Part shown: piece by piece, positions 6,606-36,400 of the stretch | Position numbering within the stretch: position 1 is the first letter of the stretch | Layout of the letters: each line of letters opens with the position of its first letter | Position numbers and translations under genes: made by a program | Virus record (IMG/VR): IMGVR_UViG_3300036859_000186 | Coordinates: 1 to 64,000 of that record | Source: a virus | Reading direction: 5' to 3' (one strand) | DNA length: 64,000 nt | The notes under the pieces: model-generated | What the model was told of the DNA's origin: nothing | The model's database searches: none | The model's input: the letters and a program-made list of their open reading frames with translations, nothing else

Positions 6606-7096
6606 TCGTTTCTCCAATCCCAGACCGAATACCCACCGGGTATGTCTGGTCCGTAGAGAAGGATTGCACAGTCTTTCGGGTAGGGGTCAGAGGCCCCCAC
6701 AAATGTCGGTCGTCCGTTCAGGAATAGGACATGCGCGACGTTGTGAACATGGTCCCGCCACCAGTTTGAACCAACAGCGGCTGGGACGAGCATGACGACG
6801 TGGGCTGCATTGTTCTCAACCTCAGCCATGGCTTTGAGGGTCCAAGGGGCGATACGGCCGAAGGGTGGGTTACAGTAGGCCCACCCATAGCCAACTGTCC
6901 ATCGCTGAACTAGGCTGTTCAATTGCTCGTCATAGAACATCGGTGCCACGGCGTTCTTGGTGTCCGCTGCTAGGTCTATGGTGAAGTCCTCAATACCCAA
7001 GCGGCGTTTGATTGCCCTGAGGAGTATGGGAGGGGTGCAATAGTCCTGTTTGGACTTACCCGGTTTCTGACGAGGGAAACTTTTAGCCACCAACAA
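6602..7096 (-). CDS. phage DNA N6-adenine methyltransferase (Dam-like)
   Basis: YCTP, IDLAA, CNPPF catalytic motif, LVPA. Confidence 0.85.
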   Translation of the reverse strand: MLVAKSFPRQKPGKSKQDYCTPPILLRAIKRRLGIEDFTIDLAADTKNAVAPMFYDEQLNSLVQRWTVGYGWAYCNPPFGRIAPWTLKAMAEVENNAAHVVMLVPAAVGSNWWRDHVHNVAHVLFLNGRPTFVGASDPYPKDCAILLYGPDIPGGYSVWDWRNE

Positions 7097-10577: not shown

Positions 10578-10654
10578 TGGTAGCGGGTGCCGGAATCGAA
10601 CCGACCATACGTGGCTTATGAGACCACCGTGTCCACCATGTTCACCTACCCGCA
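10578..10654 (-). tRNA. tRNA with CAT anticodon (Met/fMet-like or Ile2)
   Basis: Cloverleaf; GTGGT-CTCATAA-GCCAC; TTCGATT T-loop; ACCA end; U1-U72 mismatch. Confidence 0.85.
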
Positions 10655-10658
10655 AAAA

Positions 10659-10753
10659 TGGCACGGATGAAAAGAGCAGCAGGGATGCGGGTTTGAACTG
10701 CGCGGCTTATGAGGCCGTTCAACCATGATAACCCTACAAAACGACCCGTGTCA
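10659..10753 (-). ncRNA. Y-RNA-like ncRNA copy 1 (carries CAU anticodon stem-loop)
   Basis: CACGGGT-CG...GTAGGG-TTATC...CCCTGC...ATCCGTG; apical CGGC-CTCATAA-GCCG. Confidence 0.65.
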
Positions 10754-10757
10754 AAAA

Positions 10758-10834
10758 TGGTGGAATCGACAGGAATTGAACCTGCAACCCCCTGCGTGCA
10801 AGGCAGGCGCTCTACCATGTTGAGCTATCCCCGC
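10758..10834 (-). pseudogene. tRNA-Ala(TGC)-like gene with defective acceptor stem
   Basis: Intact D, anticodon and T arms and ACCA, but 5' acceptor strand lacks about 3 nt. Confidence 0.7.
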
Positions 10835-10838
10835 AAAT

Positions 10839-10914
10839 TGGCCCAATCGGCACGGATTGAACGTGCGACCTCCGGCTCTTCAGACCAGCGCTCTACCAGC
10901 TGAGCTACGATTGG
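10839..10914 (-). tRNA. tRNA-Phe(GAA)
   Basis: CCAATCG/CGATTGG acceptor; CTGAAGA loop; CCA. Confidence 0.9.
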
Positions 10915-10920
10915 AAAGGC

Positions 10921-11004
10921 AACACGGACAAGTTGGGAATGAGGAAGTGGGAGCCATCACGCTTCCCTGTTTGCGATGATAATCCTCACTCATCGGCCCG
11001 TGCT
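10921..11004 (-). ncRNA. Y-RNA-like ncRNA copy 2
   Basis: GCACGGGC-C-GA...GAGTGAGGA-TTATC...TTCCTCATTC...CTT-GTCCGTGT. Confidence 0.7.
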
Positions 11005-11010
11005 TAAAGC

Positions 11011-11136
11011 TTTGCAGTCATCACCACGCGCTACCCATCCCGGAGTCCACTACTATGTAGTAGGTTACTGTTTCGTGCATACCGGGCTTTAAGATCGGGC
11101 CTACAAACCCTCAAGCCTTGTCCGTGTGACTGCAAA
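11011..11136 (-). ncRNA. unknown structured RNA inside tRNA cluster
   Basis: 10-bp perfect closing stem TTTGCAGTCA/TGACTGCAAA; inner CCGG and CTACTA/TAGTAG stems. Confidence 0.45.
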
Positions 11137-11137
11137 T

Positions 11138-11215
11138 TGGGTGCCCCCGGCTAGATTCGAACTAGCACTGAACCGCTTCTGAGGCGGATATCTCTGCCAT
11201 TTGGATTACAGGGGC
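11138..11215 (-). tRNA. tRNA-Leu(CAG) with short variable loop
   Basis: GCCCCTG/CGGGGGC acceptor, A73; CCGC-CTCAGAA-GCGG; TTCGAAT; ends ACCCA. Confidence 0.8.
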
Positions 11216-11257
11216 ATACGTAGGCGTTTGATCGGGTCTTTGTGTGGCATATATAGT

Positions 11258-11332
11258 TGGCTATGGCGGATGGAATCGAACCATCATTACAGGATTCAGA
11301 GTCCTGAGTCCTACCAGTTGAACGACGCCACA
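11258..11332 (-). tRNA. tRNA-Gln(CTG)
   Basis: TGTGGCG/CGCCATA, G73, CCA; CAGGA-CTCTGAA-TCCTG. Confidence 0.92.
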
Positions 11333-11333
11333 A

Positions 11334-11408
11334 TGGAAGGCGGTGCTGGGATCGAACCAGCCTTAGATGTTTTGCAGACACCCGTCTCAACCGACTGACT
11401 CACTGCCC
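11334..11408 (-). tRNA. tRNA-Cys(GCA)
   Basis: GGTGT-CTGCAAA-ACATC; U73; CCA. Confidence 0.88.
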
Positions 11409-25866: not shown

Positions 25867-26907
25867 TCATGATCGAGCCACCGTCTTCTGGAGGAAGTTT
25901 TCCCATCCGCACTCGTGGCCCTCGGGCAGCGTCGTCCAATGCTTCATGGGATCATCAGGGAACCATGCTTCGAGTCCGTCGGTATCGATCTTGGCAACGA
26001 ACTTCTGGAACTGCTTCAGTTCGTGACCAGCCGATAGCCCTCGGTCCGTATTTCCTCCGACGTGGGCTTCGAGGAATTGGGAGAACTTCTCGAAGTTTGC
26101 CTTGGCAAGCCCCACGTCATTGAGGTTGATGGCCCGTCGAACCCTTGGGAGCGGCACCATTCCACGGAGAGTCTTCTCCGCTTCCCAGCGCTTCTCGCCC
26201 ATGATGTCGCTCACCAAACGCCCCAACCCCATCACGAAGGACATGAGCGGGTAAGCTCGAAGCCAGGTGTTGGAGAGCGTTCGGTATTCGACGCCGAAGG
26301 GTTGCTCACGGAACTCACCAGCCCGTCCGTAGACGCGCCGACGAGTTCGCATGAGAGGGTGTCGGTCAAACAGCACCGCTGTGTTGCCGATCACGATGTC
26401 ACAGAGCGCAACGAAGCGCTCATAGCCATCCTCCTCGTGAAGGAGTTCGTTGATGTTGCCGAAGTGCAGGTGCCCACCAGCGGACCGCGTTCGATACGTG
26501 AACGGGTTCACACGGACACCAACCTGCCGCTTGTAAATGCTCTTGCTTGGATTGCACCCAAGCATCTTGACCCGATCAGGCATGGCGTCCATGTCCCGTT
26601 TCGGGATGCGAATCACCGGAGTCCAACAGACCGTGAGGTCGGTGTCTTCCAGTTTGTGCTGAAGGCGACGCATGATGTCGGCCATCATATTGCCAATCTC
26701 AGCACGACAGAACGCTGCCTGTGGGTTGATCTCCAGCTGGATGCCGTCTCGGACGATCTTGCCGAGCCCCTTGAGTTTCATCCCTGCTTCTGGAATCAGC
26801 TCGGACGATGGAACGATGTGACCGTTCCGCGCCAAGAACAACTCTGGGTCCGAACCGAACGATGGATCGGAGTTGTTCTCCACCAATTTCGCATACTGCA
26901 AAGCCAC
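25867..26907 (-). CDS. phiEco32-like COOH-NH2 ligase (type 2)
   Basis: GSDPE, DGIQLE, GCNP, RSAGGHLH, RRRVYGRAG, GVEYRTLSN. Confidence 0.9.
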   Translation of the reverse strand: MALQYAKLVENNSDPSFGSDPELFLARNGHIVPSSELIPEAGMKLKGLGKIVRDGIQLEINPQAAFCRAEIGNMMADIMRRLQHKLEDTDLTVCWTPVIRIPKRDMDAMPDRVKMLGCNPSKSIYKRQVGVRVNPFTYRTRSAGGHLHFGNINELLHEEDGYERFVALCDIVIGNTAVLFDRHPLMRTRRRVYGRAGEFREQPFGVEYRTLSNTWLRAYPLMSFVMGLGRLVSDIMGEKRWEAEKTLRGMVPLPRVRRAINLNDVGLAKANFEKFSQFLEAHVGGNTDRGLSAGHELKQFQKFVAKIDTDGLEAWFPDDPMKHWTTLPEGHECGWENFLQKTVARS

Positions 26908-26976
26908 GACTTCCTCCCCGCCGCGAAAATCGCGGCACCAACGCTGCCTTTACTCAGCACTGGCTTGTGTGAAATG

Positions 26977-27041
26977 TGTGGACAAGAGATTGCGAGGGAC
27001 CATTTTTATCGCCAAAGATAACGGTCCCAATTCGGCCCACA
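26977..27041 (-). ncRNA. Y-RNA-like ncRNA copy 3 (minimal form)
   Basis: TGTGGGC-C-GAA-TTGGGACC-GTTATC-TTTGGC-GATAA...GGTCCC...CTT-GTCCACA. Confidence 0.75.
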
Positions 27042-27112
27042 ACGGTTTCTGACACACAAAGGGATTTCAACGGCCCAGTCTAAGGCCCCTTGTAGCTGAC
27101 TCCGCCGACTGA

Positions 27113-27541
27113 CTAGTAACGTTCTGTCGTCTTGCTGACTTTCCCTTCCTTCGTCCACTGCGCGATCAGCTTGTTCAGCTGAGTGTAGTCCGGGTTCCAC
27201 ACCACCACGGTTGAGCTGTGGGGAGGATGCACCGGATTCTTGACGAACTCAGAGCGAATGACCGCTCCGAGCTTGTGCTCGGTGACGAACGCCATGAAGG
27301 CGTCCGCATAGAACTTGTGTTCCCCGAGCCACTTCTTGTAGTTCGTGCCCCAGTCCGTCACGTCGGCGAGACACAAGATGATGCACGGCGACCGCATACC
27401 CTTCTTGAGGGCGGCAGCCAGATACGTCTCAAGACTGTCGGCATGGCACAGCCCGCCGATCTCCTGGACGCCACAGTTCTCGACGTAACCCGTTTGTCCC
27501 ATGGTCAGCGCTCTCCTCGGTGAAAGTGATGGCTCATACAT
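27113..27541 (-). CDS. hypothetical protein, paralog of 19358-19711
   Basis: NCGVQEI...LGAVI...KNP...W; start overlaps Ro60 stop. Confidence 0.6.
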   Translation of the reverse strand: MYEPSLSPRRALTMGQTGYVENCGVQEIGGLCHADSLETYLAAALKKGMRSPCIILCLADVTDWGTNYKKWLGEHKFYADAFMAFVTEHKLGAVIRSEFVKNPVHPPHSSTVVVWNPDYTQLNKLIAQWTKEGKVSKTTERY

Positions 27542-29145
27542 TAGACTCTCTCCGCGATGAAGTCGCTGACGATCTGGGGAGCGGCAGAATCGAATCCAGC
27601 CACGTCCAGCGTGCGACGGTCGTCCGGGTCGGCGATGGTGAAGTTCGTCGAGGTCATACCCATGACCACTTCGCAAGCGGCCGGGACGCCCATCTTCTGG
27701 CGATACTGACGGAGGGCTTGCGACGGATGGATGGCACCGGCGTAGGTCTCGTTGTCGGTGATGATGACGAAGCCATCGACCTCAACGCGGTTTTCCATGG
27801 CCCACAGGACGGGCTGAGCGCAGTCGGTGCGGCCGAAGTTGTTGCGCTGTGCAGCTCGGCACACCTCATCGAGGCGCATCTTGGGGGTGATGCCGAGGTC
27901 CACGAAGCGGTCGCAGAACCCGAACGTGTAGTAGTCCTTCTCGACCTTGGCGGTTGCCATCGCCATAGCAGCAGCACCCTCACAGGCACTCAACGGCATG
28001 TTGGCAATTGCGGCTGTCCGCATCGAGCCAGACACGTCGATGCCGAAGACGATCCGTTTGCCGGTCGGCTTCAGAGACTTGAATGCCAGGTAGAACGCAT
28101 CATCGAGAGCGTCCACAACAGCAGGCACTGGCTTCCACGCACCATCACCCCTGACGCCGTGACCAGACGCGTAGGTCTTGAGGGCGATGAGGATCTCGAT
28201 GGGGTGGACGCGTGCCTTGTTCAGCCATTCCTTGTCACCAAGGACAGCGACAACCTTGCGCGAGGCGTCCGAGAGGGGCGCGAGAAGGCCACACTTGGAG
28301 AGGTTGCCCAGGTTGCGGATCATCGCAGTTGCAGGCATCTTCTCCAAAAGAGCAGCCCACACGTCGGGGTCCTTCAGGAATTCGGTGGGGACCATCTCTC
28401 GCGTGAGGCCGTGATTCTGGATGAGTCGGCAGAGGTCACGGGCTGACTCGGCTGACTTGGCAGCCTCAAAGCCTACGATGACCTGGGGAAGCGTGGGTCC
28501 GTCTGCCTTGTGTCCCTCGATGCCATCAACGCACCATTTGAAGATAGCGTTCCGAGCTTCATCTGAAGTCTTCGGGTGCGCCAATCTGAGGACATCCGCA
28601 TTGGACCAGCCGTCCCTCGACTGATACTTGACGACGTGTTGGGCGAGCTTTTCCGTCGGAAGGTCAAGATACCAGTTCGCCAGGGAACTCCGAAGGCCGC
28701 GCCCCAACCCACGAAATGTCGTGACGAAGGCCATGAAATGAAAGAGGTGCGTGGGGATTCGGCAGACCTTCGGGAGAGCAGCCAGTGCCAGCTTTCGAGT
28801 GGCAGGATCTGCAGCAGACGCTGCAAGAGCCAAGGCGAAAATCGCAGGATCGTTCTTCGGTGCTCGTCCTTCATCGGATACCTCCACGATGGTGCGGACC
28901 ACTCTGGCACCATCCGCTTCGATACACCGGATGGTTCGTGCCGCATTCTCCCTCGTCAGTTTCTGAGGAGACGCGTAGTAGCTCCCACCCTCACTGCCGA
29001 GGATCAGGAACCGCAGGAACGCTGCGAAGTCGTCAAGGGCATAGACGTAGCCCCCGGCGCTGTTCTGAACCTGAGCCTCACCCAGGAGTGGTGAAGTCTG
29101 AGGCTGGGCAACACGCGGCCCAATCGAGCTGAACGGTCTCTTCAT
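27541..29145 (-). CDS. rsr: Ro60/TROVE RNA-binding protein (Rsr ortholog)
   Basis: NSAGG, RFLILGSEGGSYY, KYQSRDGWS..DVLRLAHPK, vWA DVSGSM, TDCAQP, TDNET, SIA-like TIADP. Confidence 0.97.
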   Translation of the reverse strand: MKRPFSSIGPRVAQPQTSPLLGEAQVQNSAGGYVYALDDFAAFLRFLILGSEGGSYYASPQKLTRENAARTIRCIEADGARVVRTIVEVSDEGRAPKNDPAIFALALAASAADPATRKLALAALPKVCRIPTHLFHFMAFVTTFRGLGRGLRSSLANWYLDLPTEKLAQHVVKYQSRDGWSNADVLRLAHPKTSDEARNAIFKWCVDGIEGHKADGPTLPQVIVGFEAAKSAESARDLCRLIQNHGLTREMVPTEFLKDPDVWAALLEKMPATAMIRNLGNLSKCGLLAPLSDASRKVVAVLGDKEWLNKARVHPIEILIALKTYASGHGVRGDGAWKPVPAVVDALDDAFYLAFKSLKPTGKRIVFGIDVSGSMRTAAIANMPLSACEGAAAMAMATAKVEKDYYTFGFCDRFVDLGITPKMRLDEVCRAAQRNNFGRTDCAQPVLWAMENRVEVDGFVIITDNETYAGAIHPSQALRQYRQKMGVPAACEVVMGMTSTNFTIADPDDRRTLDVAGFDSAAPQIVSDFIAERV

Positions 29146-30141: not shown

Positions 30142-30158
30142 GAGCTACCTCAAAAGTG

Positions 30159-30225
30159 CGTCGGATAAATTTCGTAGGCAGCGGTTTTATCTTAGAAGGA
30201 TAACGCTACCAGAGCGACCCGACAC
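30159..30225 (-). ncRNA. Y-RNA-like ncRNA copy 4 (carries UCU anticodon loop)
   Basis: GTGTCGGGT-CG...GGTAGCG-TTATC-CTTCTAA-GATAA...CGCTGCC...TTT-ATCCGACGC. Confidence 0.7.
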
Positions 30226-30233
30226 GTCAAATT

Positions 30234-30338
30234 TGGTGGAGGCTTGATAGGCATATGGACAGAGCGGAGCGGTGATGAGGAGACACAATGCTCGTCAATC
30301 GTTGCTGCGTAATCTGCCGCCAACCCACAACAGCCCCC
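30234..30338 (-). ncRNA. 105-nt RNA with alanine acceptor stem and CCA end
   Basis: GGGGGCT/AGCCTCC-A-CCA: G3-U70 and A73. Confidence 0.55.
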
Positions 30339-30346
30339 ATAAATAG

Positions 30347-30447
30347 TGGAGCCAAGGACAAGTGTTTGCAGAGGGGTATTCCTGTGCGCTGCCTTTCGGC
30401 CCGCTTCTAGGTGCCAGATAACCCTCATGCGTCGGCCCTAGGCTCCA
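30347..30447 (-). ncRNA. Y-RNA-like ncRNA copy 5
   Basis: GGAGCCTAGGGC-C-GA...GAGGG-TTATC...CCCTC...CTT-GTCCTTGGCTCC; GCC-GAAA-GGC tetraloop. Confidence 0.7.
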
Positions 30448-30593
30448 AGCTTACTTCCTTGATTCTGGATACAGCACGTCGAGAACTTTCTTTTGCTCAC
30501 CCTTCGCAAGGTCGGGGAGCATGGTCAGTAGGAGCCTTTCTAGCTCCTTCACGCGTGCCTCCAGAACTTGAACGTGCTTGAAATAGTCCATGG

Positions 30594-31037
30594 CTATTCA
30601 TCCCTTATGGTCTTGTGCCAGAAGGCAACGGTGTTCTTGGTCCGCTTGTTGAAAAATTCGAACCCCTTCCACCAGCCAAACTTTTCGAGGATGTGAGCCT
30701 CAGCTGGGTTGCCAGTCATGTTGACCGTAGCAGCGAGGCTCGAATATCCGAACTCTCTGGCGATGGCTTCCTTGAAGGGCATCAGTGCTTGAGCAATACC
30801 CTGCTTTTGATGCTTCGTTTCGACCCATGTCTTGGTGCTCACGAGCACACCGCAACAGTTGACCTGCTCGACGAGGGTAAAGCCGCATGCCCGTTCGTTG
30901 TTCAGGAAGCCCGTGAACTCCAACAGGAACGGACTCTTGCGGATGCGGATCTGCACGTCGCCCCACTCGTAGAACTCCTCACTGAGGGTTCTAATAGATG
31001 CAACGGCCTTTGGCACGTCACGAATTGAGAATGGCAT
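30594..31037 (-). CDS. GNAT-family acetyltransferase
   Basis: HQKQGIA acetyl-CoA motif; N...ILEKFGW. Confidence 0.75.
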   Translation of the reverse strand: MPFSIRDVPKAVASIRTLSEEFYEWGDVQIRIRKSPFLLEFTGFLNNERACGFTLVEQVNCCGVLVSTKTWVETKHQKQGIAQALMPFKEAIAREFGYSSLAATVNMTGNPAEAHILEKFGWWKGFEFFNKRTKNTVAFWHKTIRDE

Positions 31038-31176: not shown

Positions 31177-31251
31177 TGGCGGGACGGCGTGGACTCGAAC
31201 CACGAACCTTTCGTTTTGGAGACGAACACTCTGCCATTGAGCTACCGACCC
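31177..31251 (-). tRNA. tRNA-Trp(CCA)
   Basis: TTCGT-CTCCAAA-ACGAA; TTCGAGT; G73, CCA. Confidence 0.9.
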
Positions 31252-32054
31252 CTTTCGCAAAATGCGCGAAGTAAAATTCCCTAGATTTTGCCACCAAGAC
31301 GAACGATTTCGAGTTCGACTTCCTCAGCGGCTTTAGTTATGGCCTTTGCTACACACTGATGGCCATCTTCATCTGCTTTCGTGGCAAGGCGAGCCAAGAC
31401 ATCCCAATAGCCACTATCAGTCACGATCTTATCGAGTTCCACTTTGTGTTGGTGTCGCATGATTCTCTCGACAGTCAGGGCTATTTCTACAAGCACAATT
31501 CTTTGCAGATTGTGTGCCTCTGAGAATCCTCTGACACTCCGCGACGATGGCGTCTTCGGTTGACAACGAGTAGTGCTCCATCTCACAGCCTCCAGTGTAG
31601 ACCACGTAGAAGACCAGAGCGATGAAGACTACCCGATGCCAGTGAATCATCTACTTGACCGATCCCAGCTGAATGAGCGGCGCCGTCGAGGTGAGAAGTG
31701 ACGCGATGAACAATCCTGCCCAGAACTTCGATCTCATGACATGAGCCTCCAGAGGTAACGAAACAAGCGGACGAACCAGAAGCCTGGCGCGGCCACAGCG
31801 AGTATGACACCCGCCAACACAGCGGCATCATTGGGTCGGCTGATCAGGTAGAGCGCTTGGGTGAGCGCCAGTGATGTGAGCAGCACGAGAAGGACTTCAC
31901 GAAGGACCCGAAGGACGGACCAGTATGTCGGCATAGTGTCTCCAAACACGAAAAAGGGAGGTGACATGGATGAGTGGTTGTCCAGGGAACATTTGGAAGG
32001 TAACCCTAGAACGCCGACCCATGTCATCTCCCCAGCGGGGCACAACGGCAACTT

Positions 32055-32819
32055 CTAACGACTTGGCATGAGAATTGGATGACCCTCGTCACCAACCTCC
32101 TTGTAAAGCGCTTCTTTCAGCTGATACATAGCTCGTGCCCACAGCGCTACTGCGTCCGGTGAGGCCGCTTGCAGCACCATTGGGAATTCCCGAGCTGTCT
32201 TCTTGAAGTAGTTCTCTGCCCAACGACGGGCATCCTTCGGCTTGATTCGACAGCCCTCAGGCTTCGTGAGCATTCGAGTCATGTCGTTCAGGTTGTCGGC
32301 CCGGTCTAGAGTCTTAAGTGAGGCCGCGTCCTGATCGTTCGATATCTTCGAGTAGTAGACCACCTTCATGGCCGCTTGAAGGTCTTCGGGCGTCTCGTCC
32401 TTCCAATCCTTCGTGAGGAGCATGACAAGATCGACCGTTCGGTCTGGGAACTTTAACGCAATGAGGTCGTGCTGCATGATATAAGTGTCTTCCACCACAT
32501 CGTGGAGCAATGCTGCTGCCTGTGCTTCCTCATTGAGGCCGATGTCACGAGCCATCTCGAACACCCGAATGGGATGCACGATGTATGGGTCATCGAAGGC
32601 TTTACGCTTCTGTGAGATGTGTGCAGCCGTCGCACACTCCAGCGCTACATTGATGAGCGTATCGCCTTCAGGTTCAGCCACAGGAATCTCCGTATAGGGT
32701 GGTCGCGTCCTAATCAAGTGGTGCTTGCAGACAGGGCAGTCGCCCCAGCTGTAAGTCTCTGAATGGACGGGGTGAGCGATGGGGATTAGGCACCACTCAC
32801 ACCACAATTCATCTGCCAT
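32055..32819 (-). CDS. HD-domain (p)ppGpp hydrolase-like protein (Mesh1/SAH type)
   Basis: AH..Q.RK, PYIVHP, AALLHDVVED, DRADN. Confidence 0.85.
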   Translation of the reverse strand: MADELWCEWCLIPIAHPVHSETYSWGDCPVCKHHLIRTRPPYTEIPVAEPEGDTLINVALECATAAHISQKRKAFDDPYIVHPIRVFEMARDIGLNEEAQAAALLHDVVEDTYIMQHDLIALKFPDRTVDLVMLLTKDWKDETPEDLQAAMKVVYYSKISNDQDAASLKTLDRADNLNDMTRMLTKPEGCRIKPKDARRWAENYFKKTAREFPMVLQAASPDAVALWARAMYQLKEALYKEVGDEGHPILMPSR

Positions 32820-32872
32820 AGCACTAGTTCCTTCGAGGAACAAAAGCTTTTCGTCGAGTGAGCGCCAAGGCA

Positions 32873-33313
32873 TCAGTGCTTGATGTCGTCGCCGCTGATG
32901 TCGATGTCCACCGCTGGCAACACCTCAGCCACATCGCTCTCGACAACCTCACCATCGATCACTGGCTCGGGCTTCTGTCCAGCCTTCGGATCTTTCGGAC
33001 GAGGCCGATTGAAGTAGGTCGTCCAGATGACCTCACGGTCTTCCTTCGAGAACGTCTCGTCACCAGTTGCGGCAAGAGCGAAGGTGATGGCCGATTTACG
33101 GCCCTTTTCCTTGTTGAAGACATCCTGACGAGAGCACACCGCAGTCGCAGAGGTGATGAGGTTCGCCGTGACGAGCTTGCCGTCCTTCTGAACGGTCTCC
33201 CAGATGTCACAGATCGTCGTTCGACGCCCCGGTCGCTTTCCGCGTGGTTTCTCTTGCTGGCGTTCGAATGCCAGAGCAATCGTTCTGTTCTTTGGCAATG
33301 TGACGTGTATCAC
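32873..33313 (-). CDS. conserved phage protein
   Basis: AVCS.QD.FNKEKGR motif. Confidence 0.6.
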   Translation of the reverse strand: MIHVTLPKNRTIALAFERQQEKPRGKRPGRRTTICDIWETVQKDGKLVTANLITSATAVCSRQDVFNKEKGRKSAITFALAATGDETFSKEDREVIWTTYFNRPRPKDPKAGQKPEPVIDGEVVESDVAEVLPAVDIDISGDDIKH

Positions 33314-33361: not shown

Positions 33362-33490
33362 TGGTGGGTCGTGGTGGATTCGAACCTGCCCAGATCCCTC
33401 TCCCGTGGACATCTATCGTTACCCCACTACTGTTGCCGAGGAGGCCCCAGCAGTGACGATAGCCCAGCCGTCCCAGCTGGCTGACGACCC
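33362..33490 (-). ncRNA. tRNA-like RNA with anticodon arm replaced by long hairpin
   Basis: GGGTCGT/ACGACCC-A-CCA; D arm; GGTTCGAATCC T loop; extended CTATCG...CGATAG helix. Confidence 0.7.
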
Positions 33491-33494
33491 AAAC

Positions 33495-36400
33495 TTACTC
33501 GCCCTTATGACATAGGGTTGAGATGTATCGGCGTTCCTTCTGATGGTTGTGGGCTGGCCCTTCGCACCATGGACACCACATCCATGCGTTGACGGAGTTC
33601 TGCGACATGGGGCGTAGGACGTGCCAGATGTGACCACAGACAACCCACTTTAGGTATTGCAATGGTAGATACCAATGCAGATACAGAGCGAGTCGCTCTT
33701 GCCACGTCTTCTGACGCTTCCCAATGCAGCCACACTTAGCACAGTGGGGCACAGGGGCGTCGTGGCATTCGTCGGTGACGAGTGGGCCGCCACACTCGCA
33801 GGTTCCGATTCTATCGGTCACGGTCCTTGTCACCTTTCCAACCCCGCTTGAGCTGTTCGAGGTTGTATTTTGCCATGATGTCGTTCAATGCTCGGATGGT
33901 CATGAAAACTGCCAACTCGTTGGGTTCACCATAGTGGAGCTGGTCCCACAGCTTCTGAGACTCATCCTTGAGCAGTTCATGGGCGGGATGCTTCAACAGT
34001 GGCATTGCTTCTCTCCTTATCCCAACGCCAGACACCGTCCTCGTAGATCATGACGGTGATGCAGTCGAACTTGCACTTGTGGATGGTGCCGTTGGCCGGG
34101 GGCTCGTTCTGTGTGCTCATAAAGTCCCCAAGGGACGAGAGGCAACACCTGAAAAGCCCACCTTGAGCAATGCCGTAAGGCACGCGGCTACCCATTACCA
34201 TTCCTCATCGTTGTCGGGAAAGGCTCGGGTCTCCTTGGCATAGCGCTTGCACTTGGTGCAGAAAGCAGGCCAACAGTCCCCAGTCATGCCAAGTAACACA
34301 CGATGGCTCTCACCGTCGTCGCAGGTGCCGCTTTCCAACTCTTCGCTGGTGGTCAGGAGAGCGGGATCAGGAGGCTTCTCATCGTTGTCACAGGCTCCGG
34401 CCTCTATGACTTCGAGGGCCTCACGCATGTCATCGAGGTTCATCACCACATCACCTTTTTACAGCGCCTACATTGTGCGAACGCCTCAGAGAGGAGCACC
34501 GGCCCATGAAAGAGCGGTGGATACCACACCGGATCGTGTCCCCACACATTGCATTGGGTCATGAGGGGCATCAGCTCCCAATAGAGCAAGAGCGCAATGA
34601 ATGTGAGGACAAAGATACCGAGCAGGTCCATTAGCCCTTCCGTCGATTCTGGCGGTTGATGGCACGCTTCGACAAGATGCGGCCACGGTTGTGGCGCTTC
34701 GATGCCTGACGAGCAGCCCAGCCCACACCAGCCTTCTCAGTGCCAATGCGGTTCAGTTCCCGCTTGATTCGTTTCTCTCTTTTCCGCATGTCAGCCCCGG
34801 TCTCGCTGGTGAAGGTCGTCGGTGTATTCGACATCGTCGATCTTGAAGTTCTCCAGCACCTTCGTGAGGGCGATCTTGGCATCGACCAGTTGGGCTTGCG
34901 TCTGTTGAGCGGCCTTAATCTGGTCGTCGATCACGATGATTTGACGGTCGAGGGCCAACTGAGCATCACGAAGCTTGAGAAGGGCACTGTTGTTCATCGT
35001 AAACACGGTAGTCTCCTCCTTGAGAAAAAGGCAGCACTGATCGTCATTGGGGCACAACCTCACCCCATCCCTACAAATGAGGGTGCAGCGCAGCGTCATG
35101 AGAGGTTGAACCTCACCTTGCCGAAGTCCACGACACGGCCGAAGATGCGGCGTCTAGCGAGGGAGCCCATGCTCTCTTCCATAGCTTCGGCACAGTCGCG
35201 CAGCATGATGTATTCCTCAACGGAGACGGGCACAGATATTTGGAGGCCACGGCCGCCGTTGGCCATCTTTTGACGAACGCTCTTAACGTGGCGCTTAGTC
35301 GAGGGTAGGCCACCCAAACGCCGACGAAAGACTTCTAAGAGCATGTCCGGTCTCTGCCTCAGAAAGCCTGTCAAAATCTTCCTCTCCGTCTTCGAGCCTG
35401 AGAGCCTGTTGACGATGGTTGAGAGGCTCTGACCCTTCATCAGATCCTTCGACCTCAAGAGCCCTGAGCTTTCCAAGCTCGCGTTCGAGTTCGAAGTAGT
35501 CGTCGGGGCTGAGTTTGTCTTCTTCGCCATGCCTGAGCACGTCCTCGATGTCTGTGATACGCTGAGTGTATCGGCTAGGCACGGTCGCGTTCCTTGAGCC
35601 GGGGGGCACGAACCTTGTGGATGCGTTCGACAAGGAGCTTGTGGTTGACCTGGGGCTGAAGCTCCTCGCCGCATCGATCGACGAGGATGGCTAGTCCTTC
35701 GGGGCTGACCCTCAACTCCTTGACAATCTCGGTGCCCTTACTGACGAGGGTTTCGCCGTTGGGCAGCAGGTTTCTGTAGGTGACGGGTCGCACAATGGCG
35801 ATCACCTTTCGCATAGGGACGCCGAGCTTTGTCACTTCTTGTGTTACTTCGCAACGGAACATCACGAACTCCTTGTAGCTTCATCTCATGAAGGTGTTGC
35901 TGCTCACTATCATGCAAGAGATATGCACGATTGTGAGGATTTAAGTCTCCTTGCAGTATGAGGGCTGCAGCGTTCTTGTCTCGCACGACCTTTGGAAAGT
36001 GTGACCACATGAGAACCTTATTGGAGTGCTGGGGGTTCAGACTCTCAAACTTTAGGGACCTATCCGCCTACGAACGACTTCCACCATTGTCGAGCGAACC
36101 CAACACACGTGTCCATCGAGTGACAGCTATAATAATGGAATCCCACTCAATTACCATGGTCAGTGAGCTTCGATTCCCAAGGCAAATCCTCTCTACTCCA
36201 GCTCCCCTTGTTATCGCAAATGCTTTACCGCTAAGCTACCAGCCCCATTGCTGGGGCCGGGGTGGGTTCGAACCACCGACCTTTTGCGAACTTGGGCACG
36301 CTTCGTTCAAGAATGATTGCCCGTCCCCCCAACCTTAGCCGTGAATGAGCCATCCAATGACGAGAGATGCCTCTTCAGGGTTCATTTTCCCTTGGGCTCG

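What the first reader, a model, noticed from the sequence alone, without database searches (positions are those of the whole stretch)
30234..30338. 105-nt RNA with an alanine-identity acceptor stem but no T arm or anticodon
Seen: 5' GGGGGCT pairs with AGCCTCC, followed by A-CCA, giving G1-C72, G2-C71, G3-U70 and A73. The interior forms a rod (TGTGGG/TCCATA, GGCGG/CCGCT) with no TTCG loop. It sits between two Y-like RNAs. Known: G3-U70 with A73 is sufficient for AlaRS to charge minihelices, and tmRNA has such ends. Inference: an aminoacylatable non-decoding RNA, either an Ala donor for the nearby ligase/GNAT enzymes or a decoy for acceptor-end toxins.
Basis: partly seen in the sequence, partly recalled or inferred. 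Interest (0 to 1): 0.72.

Follow-up and report, generated by a model that had tools for sequence, protein, structure and literature searches.

The report
Alanine-type acceptor-stem RNA in phage Ro60 locus
A soil phage that carries the RNA-surveillance protein Ro60 and six partner "Y RNAs" also encodes a 105-base hairpin whose end copies the alanine-accepting end of a tRNA without any other tRNA part; it is probably a stripped-down relative of phage RNAs that imitate tRNA or the ribosome-rescue RNA tmRNA, but neither its expression nor its charging has been tested.

Summary
On the minus strand, 30338->30234 reads GGGGGCU ... AGCCUCC-A-CCA. That gives G1-C72, G2-C71, G3.U70, A73 and an encoded CCA, around an irregular rod. 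There is no D arm, anticodon arm or T arm.

It fills the gap between two Y RNAs that an independent covariance model confirms. Such a stem arises in 0.07% of shuffles of that 309-nt gap.

It matches no Rfam family. It scores -0.3 bits on my Y-RNA model, where the six true Y RNAs score 21-46 bits.

A related phage (L005) has, at the same place and behind the same leader (ATTTAT|GGGG), an 85-nt RNA of the tag-less mini-tmRNA type known from mycobacteriophage DS6A. It has the same alanine end, two compensatory acceptor pairs and a shared interior block.

Alanine-type ends are also common among Ro60-linked tRNA-shaped Y RNAs: 15-18 of 37, against 4 tRNA-Ala among 242 ordinary CCA-encoding tRNA genes.

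Best reading: a real small RNA, cut out like a tRNA and probably charged by AlaRS, acting off the ribosome. No link to the GNAT or the ligases was found.

I class it as a new variant of a known kind. The scan has already noted tag-less mini-tmRNAs on other phage DNA, and it noted this same stretch twice.

The parts
30234..30338 (-). The 105-nt candidate RNA: a 7-bp acceptor-type stem, an irregular rod, and a 3' ACCA
   Evidence: Sequence read. MFE -37.4 kcal/mol, a rod. No Rfam or ARAGORN match.
30332..30338 (-). 5' acceptor strand GGGGGCU (G3 at 30336)
   Evidence: Pairs 7 of 7 with 30238-30244. Pair probabilities 0.94-1.0 in context.
30238..30244 (-). 3' acceptor strand AGCCUCC (U70 at 30240)
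   Evidence: Pairs 5:68 and 6:67 differ from L005 on both sides and still pair.
30234..30237 (-). Discriminator A73 and encoded CCA
   Evidence: Seven of the window's eight tRNA genes also encode CCA, and their trailers (CCAATTTG) resemble this one.
30294..30317 (-). Interior block GCAGAUUACGCAGCAA... shared with the L005 element
   Evidence: Local alignment score 26 against 15.1 +/- 2.9 in shuffles; 11 of 2000 shuffles reach it.
30339..30348 (-). Leader CACUAUUUAU, with U at -1 before G1
   Evidence: Nearly the same leader (CCACATTTAT) precedes the L005 element. The combined pattern of leader, GGGG and TCCACCA is very rare in IMG/VR (3 hits).
30351..30443 (-). Upstream Y RNA; its outer stem GGAGCC/GGCUCC is followed by ACUA
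   Evidence: Model R1: 26 bits, E=0.001.
30158..30225 (-). Downstream Y RNA
   Evidence: Model R1: 43.1 bits, E=1.5e-7. nhmmer finds relatives in L045, L005 and L028.
27541..29145 (-). Ro60/TROVE gene (context)
   Evidence: Pfam TROVE 4e-40 and vWA_Ro60 1.6e-60.

Best explanation
This is a real small non-coding RNA gene. It belongs to the phage's set of tRNA mimics that surrounds Ro60 and its Y RNAs. It is the most reduced form seen so far of the alanine-acceptor RNAs found in such loci. Those include tag-less mini-tmRNAs of the DS6A type and tRNA-shaped Y RNAs. This one keeps only the acceptor helix with the alanine identity set and the encoded CCA, set on an irregular rod.

Proposed mechanism. 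(1) It is transcribed with its neighbours on the minus strand (inferred). (2) RNase P cuts before G1, after the U-rich leader, and the 3' end is trimmed back to the encoded CCA as for the phage's own tRNAs (inferred from the flanks). (3) Host AlaRS, which reads G3.U70 and A73 in the acceptor helix and needs no anticodon, charges it with alanine (inferred from established identity rules). (4) It has no anticodon and no tRNA elbow, so it cannot decode. It therefore acts off the ribosome, either as a stable, end-protected RNA or as a competitor for factors that handle tRNA or tmRNA 3' ends (speculative).

Alanine identity would be the obvious choice, because it is one of the few identities that an RNA without an anticodon can carry.
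For: The identity set and encoded CCA are present, and the stem is stable in context. Chance in this gap is 7e-4. The element fills the space between two model-confirmed Y RNAs on the gene strand. Its flanks resemble those of the phage's tRNA genes. In L005 (Ro60 58% identical, shared ligase cluster) the order is Y RNA, leader ATTTAT, then an 85-nt GGGGCGU..ACGCUCC-ACCA RNA with a canonical T arm. That RNA fits the Rfam tmRNA model end to end at 31.2 bits, E=1.9e-10, below the gathering score. Between the two elements, pairs 1-4 and A73 are unchanged and pairs 5:68 and 6:67 are compensatory; an interior block is also shared (p about 0.005). Of 54 alanine-type stems in 244 Ro60 loci, 20 lie within 400 nt of a Y-RNA 5' motif, where only 6.4% of the sequence lies. 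Of 37 tRNA-order Y RNAs, 15 carry the full alanine set, with at least 7 different stems that covary at pairs 4-7. Only 4 of 242 ordinary CCA-encoding tRNA genes are tRNA-Ala. Literature: M. smegmatis YrlA is cut by RNase P and gains CCA in vivo (PMC4201824). The DS6A TLD-only tmRNA is a known phage RNA (PMC4131195, PMC11915505).
Against: There is no expression evidence of any kind. Only one distant homologue exists, and nhmmer does not detect it, so covariation rests on two sequences. The fold is not significantly more stable than shuffles (z = -1.7). There is no T arm, which the tRNA-type RNase P substrates and every other alanine-acceptor element found here possess. The homology to L005 rests on position, the leader, the stem and a 24-nt block. 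No close relative of this phage could be fetched.
Confidence: 0.45

Rival explanations
1. Processing spacer or decaying relic. The stem and CCA survive only because they give RNase P and the 3'-end enzymes a place to cut, freeing the two flanking Y RNAs. Alternatively, the element is a mini-tmRNA-type gene that lost its T arm and is on the way out. In either case the excised piece has no function and alanine plays no part.
For: The T arm present in the L005, DS6A, L263 and L052 elements is missing here. The fold is only weakly better than chance. In this phage, Y RNAs and tRNAs alternate within one cluster at 10578-11408, so tRNA processing probably shapes Y RNA ends.
Against: Elsewhere Y RNAs abut each other without any tRNA-like spacer, for example L045 7593-7819, so a spacer is not needed. 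All seven pairs, G3.U70, A73 and CCA are intact while the rest has diverged beyond recognition, which is not what neutral decay predicts.
Confidence: 0.2
2. A divergent Y RNA. The interior GUUGUGGGUUGG ... CUCUGUCCAUA forms a Ro60-binding bulged helix, and the acceptor-like stem merely closes and protects the ends.
For: The words GGGYYG and UGUCC lie in the right order and resemble the Y RNA at 26975-27043 (GUUGUGGGCCGA / CUCUUGUCCACA). The neighbouring Y RNA at 30351-30443 has the same layout: an outer stem GGAGCC/GGCUCC, then ACUA.
Against: The Y-RNA model gives -0.3 bits, against 21-46 bits for the six true Y RNAs. The CGAA and GUUAUC motifs are absent. The Y-type pairing is 7.8 kcal/mol worse than the best fold and has about zero probability in the ensemble. 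The interior has no significant similarity to five of the window's six Y RNAs; the sixth (10660-10752) scores as high as the L005 block, reached by 23 of 500 shuffles.
Confidence: 0.12
3. A chance hairpin in an untranslated spacer, or part of the 78-codon frame 30192-30428 (minus strand), so that no discrete RNA exists.
For: The loose motif is as common as in shuffles over whole loci. An open frame does span the element.
Against: Chance within this gap is 7e-4. The open frame runs through two model-confirmed Y RNAs and has no Pfam match. A positional homologue exists in L005.
Confidence: 0.08
4. An alanyl-RNA donor. The charged RNA hands alanine to the neighbouring GNAT or to the ligase cluster, as aminoacyl-tRNA does for Fem-type transferases.
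For: Only that a GNAT lies 256 nt upstream and a ligase cluster lies downstream of Ro60.
Against: The GNAT is a 147-aa single domain with weak generic hits and no Fem, L/F-transferase or NCBIfam match. It has no counterpart near the L005 homologue. The ligases belong to ATP-dependent families.
Confidence: 0.04

Closest known systems
TLD-only (tag-less, CDS-less) tmRNA of mycobacteriophage DS6A; similar forms occur in jakobid mitochondria and some plastids (PMC4131195, PMC11915505)
   Same: A phage-encoded small RNA with no anticodon and no tag frame, carrying G1-C72, G2-C71, G3.U70 and A73 (DS6A read). The element at the homologous place in L005 is of this type.
   Different: DS6A, L005 and L263 keep a canonical T arm and the GGAC/D-loop analogue that dock SmpB. 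The window's RNA has neither and gets no tmRNA model score. It is longer (105 nt against about 80-85) and rod-shaped. DS6A does not encode CCA.
YrlA and other bacterial or phage Y RNAs, including M. smegmatis YrlA, which is cut by RNase P and receives CCA (PMC4201824); phage phiLo Yrl1/Yrl2 (PMC12135203)
   Same: Lies in a Ro60 locus among Y RNAs and imitates part of a tRNA. The M. smegmatis case shows that a Ro60-linked RNA can acquire a tRNA-type CCA end.
   Different: It has no Ro60-binding motif (CGAA / GGGYCG-N10-GUUAYC) and no T or D arm. My Y model scores it at -0.3 bits and Rfam YrlA gives no hit.
tRNA-order Y RNAs with a free NCCA end, found here in phage contigs and bacterial MAGs; I found no description of them
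   Same: Next to Ro60. About half carry the same alanine identity set plus encoded CCA. L215:5728-5902(-) has the identical acceptor stem and the 5' start GGGGGCUGUnGUG.
   Different: They keep a T arm, mostly a D arm, and a permuted Y module. Rfam scores them as tRNA at 37-45 bits. Interior similarity to the candidate is not significant.
Synthetic tRNA-Ala minihelices and microhelices charged by AlaRS (PMC9976931 and the work it cites)
   Same: An acceptor helix with G3.U70 and A73 and a free CCA, without an anticodon.
   Different: Those are laboratory constructs of 4-12 bp. This is a natural gene with an imperfect rod of about 30 bp.
Precursor of 4.5S (SRP) RNA as a hairpin substrate of RNase P
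   Same: A rod of about 110 nt that starts GGGGGCU and has a C-rich 3' tail, showing that RNase P can cut a rod without a T arm.
   Different: There is no SRP domain IV motif and no Rfam SRP hit, so it is not an SRP RNA.

Membership tests
tRNA (RF00005) | Cloverleaf with D arm, anticodon arm and T arm | tested here: not met
   ARAGORN finds nothing. Rfam finds nothing at E<=10, even when only 126 nt are searched.
tRNA-Ala acceptor identity | G1-C72, G2-C71, G3.U70, A73 and a 3' CCA | tested here: met
   Read directly. Feature list from PMC9976931.
AlaRS substrate | Is charged with alanine in a way that depends on G3.U70 | not testable with these tools
   Needs an in vitro charging assay or an acid-gel northern.
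tmRNA / TLD-only tmRNA | T arm with a GUUCRAnyC loop next to the 3' acceptor strand | tested here: not met
   The 17 nt before the 3' acceptor strand form 2 of 5 stem pairs and contain no TTCRA. Alignment with DS6A, L005 and L263 shows the same.
tmRNA / TLD-only tmRNA | Match to the tmRNA covariance model | tested here: not met
   No hit at E<=10. L005 gives 31.2 bits and L102 gives 29.2 bits.
tmRNA / TLD-only tmRNA | Alanine-type acceptor end | tested here: met
tmRNA / TLD-only tmRNA | Descent from a TLD-type gene | tested here: inconclusive
   Same position, leader and stem, plus a 24-nt block shared with L005. nhmmer sees no similarity.
Phage/bacterial small Y RNA | GGGYCG-N10-GUUAYC ... 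YUURYCC with a covarying outer stem (includes the CGAA motif) | tested here: not met
   Model R1 gives -0.3 bits against 21-46 bits for the six Y RNAs. GUUAUC and CGAA are absent.
Phage/bacterial small Y RNA | Binds Ro60 | not testable with these tools
   Needs a gel-shift assay. The predicted fold does not present the Y helix.
RNase P substrate | Cleaved 5' of G1 | not testable with these tools
   Only the flanks can be read: U at -1 and an NCCA tail.
Phage attP copy of a host tmRNA or tRNA 3' end | An integrase in the genome, with only the 3' part of the gene copied | tested here: not met
   No PF00589 match in the complete 76-kb genome with terminal repeats. A matching 5' strand is present.

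The most novel reading that the evidence does not exclude
This is a natural alanine-accepting RNA made of an acceptor helix on a rod, with no T arm, no elbow and no anticodon. That would make it the first minihelix-type AlaRS substrate encoded by a genome. It would work within the phage Ro60/Y RNA system: the alanyl-CCA end would shield it from 3' exonucleases such as PNPase, or would let it compete for factors that act on tRNA or tmRNA 3' ends. More broadly, alanylation would be a general, undescribed property of Ro60-linked tRNA-shaped Y RNAs.
Probability: 0.2. Interest if true: 0.8.

Novelty: new variant of a known kind. Interest (0 to 1): 0.55.

Why it matters
Besides tRNA, tmRNA is the best-known cellular RNA that gets aminoacylated, and phage mini-tmRNAs are barely studied. 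If this RNA is charged, nature would be using the bare acceptor-helix code that so far has been shown only with synthetic minihelices. It would also tie aminoacylation to the Ro60/Y RNA system. Chen et al. 2014 raised that possibility for M. smegmatis YrlA, and it was never followed up. About half of the tRNA-shaped Y RNAs found next to Ro60 in several bacterial phyla and in phages carry the alanine identity set. That makes the question testable with one AlaRS assay on a few RNAs.

Tried and rejected
- The closest Ro60 relatives (63-59% identity, Logan and ENA contigs) could therefore not be fetched, and covariation in close kin could not be tested.
- **Direct searches for relatives.** A Ro60 single-protein scan and an exact 22-mer scan of IMG/VR found nothing.
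- **Pattern scans of IMG/VR.** One pattern combined GGGG with the shared interior block. A second combined the leader, GGGG and TCCACCA. A third combined TCCACCA with a following Y motif. Together they returned only L005, one further TLD-like RNA (L263), three true tRNA-Ala genes and chance hits. None was another rod without a T arm.
- **nhmmer.** Searching 244 loci with the candidate found only the candidate itself.
- **Rfam at the most permissive setting.** Only chance C/D-box hits appeared, on the opposite strand.
- **Sequencing runs.** No RNA holder is listed; the single holder is the probable source DNA sample.
- **attP reading.** No integrase was found.
- **Phage CCA-adding enzyme.** No PF01743 match.
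- **SRP/4.5S reading.** It was prompted by the 5' start GGGGGCU; no model hit supports it.
- **Tag reading frame.** The frame starting GCA GAU UAC GCA GCA (A-D-Y-A-A) runs to the 3' end without a stop. I take this as coincidence.
- **GNAT.** Pfam and NCBIfam gave nothing specific. A PHROGs call failed on a coordinate slip and was not repeated.
- **Other neighbouring frames.** No Pfam hits.
- **First enrichment test.** A test that required the T arm to sit directly against a 7-nt strand gave only 3 of 38 against 4 of 242 (p=0.055). It had missed the 8-bp-stem family that searches found later.
- **Similarity to L215.** Interior similarity between the candidate and the L215 element is not significant.

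Full report
**Setting.** The window is 64 kb of a complete 76,344-bp IMG/VR phage record with direct terminal repeats. Its only sequencing-run holder is a soil metagenome. Around the finding, all genes lie on the minus strand:
- Ro60/TROVE at 27541-29145
- a COOH-NH2 ligase at 25867-26907
- a small GNAT at 30594-31037
- an HD/SpoT-like hydrolase at 32055-32873
- tRNA-Trp at 31177-31251

**The observation.** Read on the minus strand, 30338->30234 begins GGGGGCU and ends AGCCUCC-ACCA. This gives G1-C72, G2-C71, G3.U70, G4-C69, G5-C68, C6-G67 and U7-A66, then A73 and an encoded CCA.
- With 60-nt flanks, the seven pairs have probabilities of 0.94-1.0.
- The rest folds into an irregular rod at -37.4 kcal/mol. 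This is only modestly better than shuffles (z = -1.7; 12 of 200 shuffles fold as well).
- The favoured register pairs GUGGGU/GCCUAU and GGCAGA/UCUGUC.
- There is no T loop, D arm or anticodon arm. ARAGORN, Rfam at gathering score, Rfam at E<=10 on 4 kb, and Rfam on 126 nt alone all give nothing on this strand.

**Is it more than chance?** Across about 1.2 Mb of Ro60 loci, the loose motif (GGG../..UCC-NCCA, 7 pairs, span up to 400 nt) is as frequent as in shuffles: 72 against 70.7. The stem alone therefore proves nothing. Within the 309-nt intergenic stretch 30142-30450, on the gene strand, the strict motif appears in 71 of 100,000 dinucleotide shuffles. The element also fits the gap between two other RNAs almost exactly.

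**The neighbours are Y RNAs.** I built a covariance model (R1) from 61 small Y RNAs taken only from other Ro60 loci. Its outer stem shows abundant compensatory change. With filters off, it finds six Y RNAs in the window, all on the minus strand:

| Coordinates | E-value |
|---|---|
| 31963-32025 | 4e-8 |
| 30158-30225 | 1.5e-7 |
| 26975-27043 | 3.5e-6 |
| 10921-11004 | 4e-5 |
| 30351-30443 | 1e-3 |
| 10660-10752 | 0.011 |

Two of them flank the candidate. The 78-codon frame 30192-30428 runs through both and has no Pfam match, so I set it aside.

**The candidate is not itself a Y RNA.** Its interior holds the words GUUGUGGGUUGG and CUCUGUCCAUA, which recall the Ro60-binding helix of the Y RNA at 26975-27043. 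Three results argue against membership:
- R1 scores it at -0.3 bits, against 21-46 bits for the true Y RNAs.
- The CGAA and GUUAUC motifs are missing.
- The Y-type pairing costs 7.8 kcal/mol and has about zero weight in the ensemble.

**A positional homologue.** No close relative of this phage is in IMG/VR. Profile-based scans gave 244 Ro60 loci from viral, metagenome and genome collections. L005 has a Ro60 58% identical and shares the downstream ligase cluster. Upstream of its Ro60 the order is:
- a Y RNA,
- the spacer CCACATTTAT (the window has CCACTATTTAT),
- an 85-nt RNA, GGGGCGU ... ACGCUCC-ACCA, with a canonical T arm.

Rfam aligns this RNA end to end with the tmRNA model, with the middle deleted. 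The score is 31.2 bits, E=1.9e-10, below the gathering score of 47. This is the architecture of the 'TLD only' tmRNA of mycobacteriophage DS6A (PMC4131195, PMC11915505), whose sequence I read.

Comparing the window and L005:
- Pairs 1-4 and A73 are identical.
- Pairs 5:68 and 6:67 are changed on both sides and still pair.
- A 24-nt interior block (GCAGAUU.CGC.GCAA...) is shared, with an alignment score reached by 11 of 2000 shuffles.
- nhmmer does not detect the similarity.
- In the alignment, the window's RNA has unrelated sequence where the others have the T arm.

I read the two as homologues, and the window's copy as a version without a T arm. This rests on two sequences only.

**Alanine ends recur around Ro60.**
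- A first scan required a T arm directly against a 7-nt strand. It found alanine-type non-canonical elements in L005, L052 and L102, a weak enrichment (3 of 38 against 4 of 242, p=0.055).
- A scan without that restriction showed much more. Of 54 unique strict alanine-type stems, 20 lie within 400 nt of a Y-RNA 5' motif on the same strand, where only 6.4% of the sequence lies.
- Most of these belong to a family of 115-175-nt RNAs next to Ro60 in phage contigs and in MAGs of Armatimonadota, Chloroflexota, Myxococcota and others. Their layout is: acceptor stem, usually a D arm, a Y module in permuted order closed by a loop, a T arm, the acceptor 3' strand, and NCCA.
- Of 37 such RNAs, 15 carry the full alanine set, and 3 more have UCC-A-CCCA. 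There are at least seven different stems that covary at pairs 4-7.
- Rfam scores them as tRNA with a large insert, or as sub-threshold tmRNA.
- One of them, L215:5728-5902(-), has exactly the candidate's acceptor stem and 5' start. Its interior is not significantly similar to the candidate's.

The alanine-type end of the candidate is therefore not an oddity of one gap. It is a recurring trait of tRNA mimics in Ro60 loci.

**Flanks.** Seven of the window's eight tRNA genes encode CCA. Two have the trailer CCAATTTG, and the candidate has CCAAATTTG. Position -1 is U. The phage's own tRNA-Ala(UGC), at 10758-10831, was found by Rfam but missed by ARAGORN. It sits between a tRNA and a Y RNA in a mixed cluster of tRNAs and Y RNAs.

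**Mechanism.** What is shown:
- the sequence features,
- the stability of the stem,
- the placement,
- the homologue,
- the enrichment of alanine-type ends.

What is inferred from established knowledge:
- RNase P cleavage before G1 and 3' trimming to the encoded CCA. M. smegmatis YrlA is a precedent for a Ro60-linked RNA that is cut by RNase P and ends in CCA (PMC4201824).
- Charging by AlaRS, which relies on G3.U70 and A73 and not on an anticodon (PMC9976931).

What is speculative is the role of the charged end. It might protect the RNA against 3' exonucleases, an idea Chen et al. raised, or it might compete for factors that act on tRNA or tmRNA ends. For DS6A-type RNAs, inhibition of tmRNA, perhaps by titrating SmpB, has been reported (PMC4131195). 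That probably does not apply here, because the elbow that SmpB binds is missing.

The GNAT gives only weak generic hits and has no counterpart near the L005 element. The ligases are ATP-dependent types. An attP reading fails because the genome has no integrase.

**Verdict.** The feature is real and is probably an RNA gene. It is a new variant, without a T arm, of the phage alanine-acceptor tRNA/tmRNA mimics, set in a Ro60/Y RNA cluster. Expression, mature ends, charging and function are all untested, and only one distant homologue supports conservation. Earlier notes of this scan describe tag-less mini-tmRNAs and a Ro60-linked tRNA-shaped RNA on other phage DNA, and this same stretch was noted twice. 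I treated those notes as leads and checked the relevant points myself.

Noticed in passing
L186:3421-3547, L217:3479-3603, L221:3023-3147, L240:3597-3724, L247:1184-1309, L194:3095-3222, L230:3002-3133, L239:3194-3324, L101:972-1102, L133:3582-3718, L102:4748-4870, L159:8926-9067, L215:5728-5902(-): A widespread family of 'tRNA-order' Y RNAs lies next to Ro60 in phages and in several bacterial phyla. The layout is acceptor stem, D arm, a permuted Y module closed by a loop, T arm and NCCA. About half carry the full alanine identity set, with covarying stems. Rfam calls them tRNA with a big insert, or weak tmRNA. I found no description of them.
   Followed up: partly
L199:1311-1425 and L208:3291-3405: 115-nt versions of the same family. 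They lack the D arm but keep the alanine-type 8-bp acceptor, the Y module, the T arm and ACCA.
   Followed up: no
window 10758-10831 (-): A tRNA-Ala(UGC) with encoded CCA. Rfam finds it at 48.8 bits; ARAGORN misses it. It has an A6/G67 mismatch in the acceptor stem and sits in a mixed cluster of tRNAs and two Y RNAs (10578-11408).
   Followed up: partly
window 33362-33490 (-): A tRNA-like RNA with acceptor stem GGGUCGU/ACGACCC (G3-C70, not alanine type), ACCA and a UUCGAAU T loop. Its anticodon arm is replaced by a hairpin of about 60 nt whose base reads UGGGC ... UGUCCA.
   Followed up: partly
window 36210-36291 (-): A free-standing permuted tRNA-like domain: T arm, a closed acceptor hairpin and a D arm. 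It resembles the tRNA module of YrlA without a Ro60-binding stem.
   Followed up: no
window 30351-30447 (-): The upstream Y RNA is enclosed by an outer stem GGAGCC/GGCUCC followed by ACUA. This is two transitions away from an alanine-type acceptor with CCA. GGCUCCACUA is also the 3' end of the DS6A TLD-only gene.
   Followed up: no
L045:6000-7950: About a dozen Y RNAs in tandem within 2 kb upstream of Ro60. Some have T arms and give YrlA hits. A tRNA-Ser is among them, preceded at 6634-6686 by a 53-nt alanine-type mini element.
   Followed up: partly
L263:4520-4616: A 97-nt alanine-type RNA with a T arm and no anticodon arm, directly after a tRNA and behind the same TTTAT leader, on a small phage contig.
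   Followed up: no
window 30158-30225 (-), 26975-27043 (-); L045:6326-6393; L028:4931-4986: The apical hairpin UUAUC-loop-GAUAA of several Y RNAs has a 7-nt loop shaped like an anticodon loop (CUUCUAA, CUUAAGA, CUUCAAA), and the middle triplet varies.
   Followed up: no
L085:1690-1760, L086:1655-1745, L087:4235-4300, L088:1-270, L005:6698-6774: In the clade nearest to this phage, many Y RNAs read GAGCCG ... UUGCUC or UUGUUC instead of GGGCCG ... UUGUCC. This is a compensatory change in the Ro60-binding helix.
   Followed up: no
window 32055-32873 (-): An HD/SpoT-like hydrolase domain (HD_4 1.9e-10; TIGR00691 hydrolase part 7.7e-18). Small alarmone hydrolases are known to reverse pyrophosphorylation of tRNA CCA ends by toxSAS enzymes (my own knowledge). 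This could connect to RNAs that display CCA ends.
   Followed up: no
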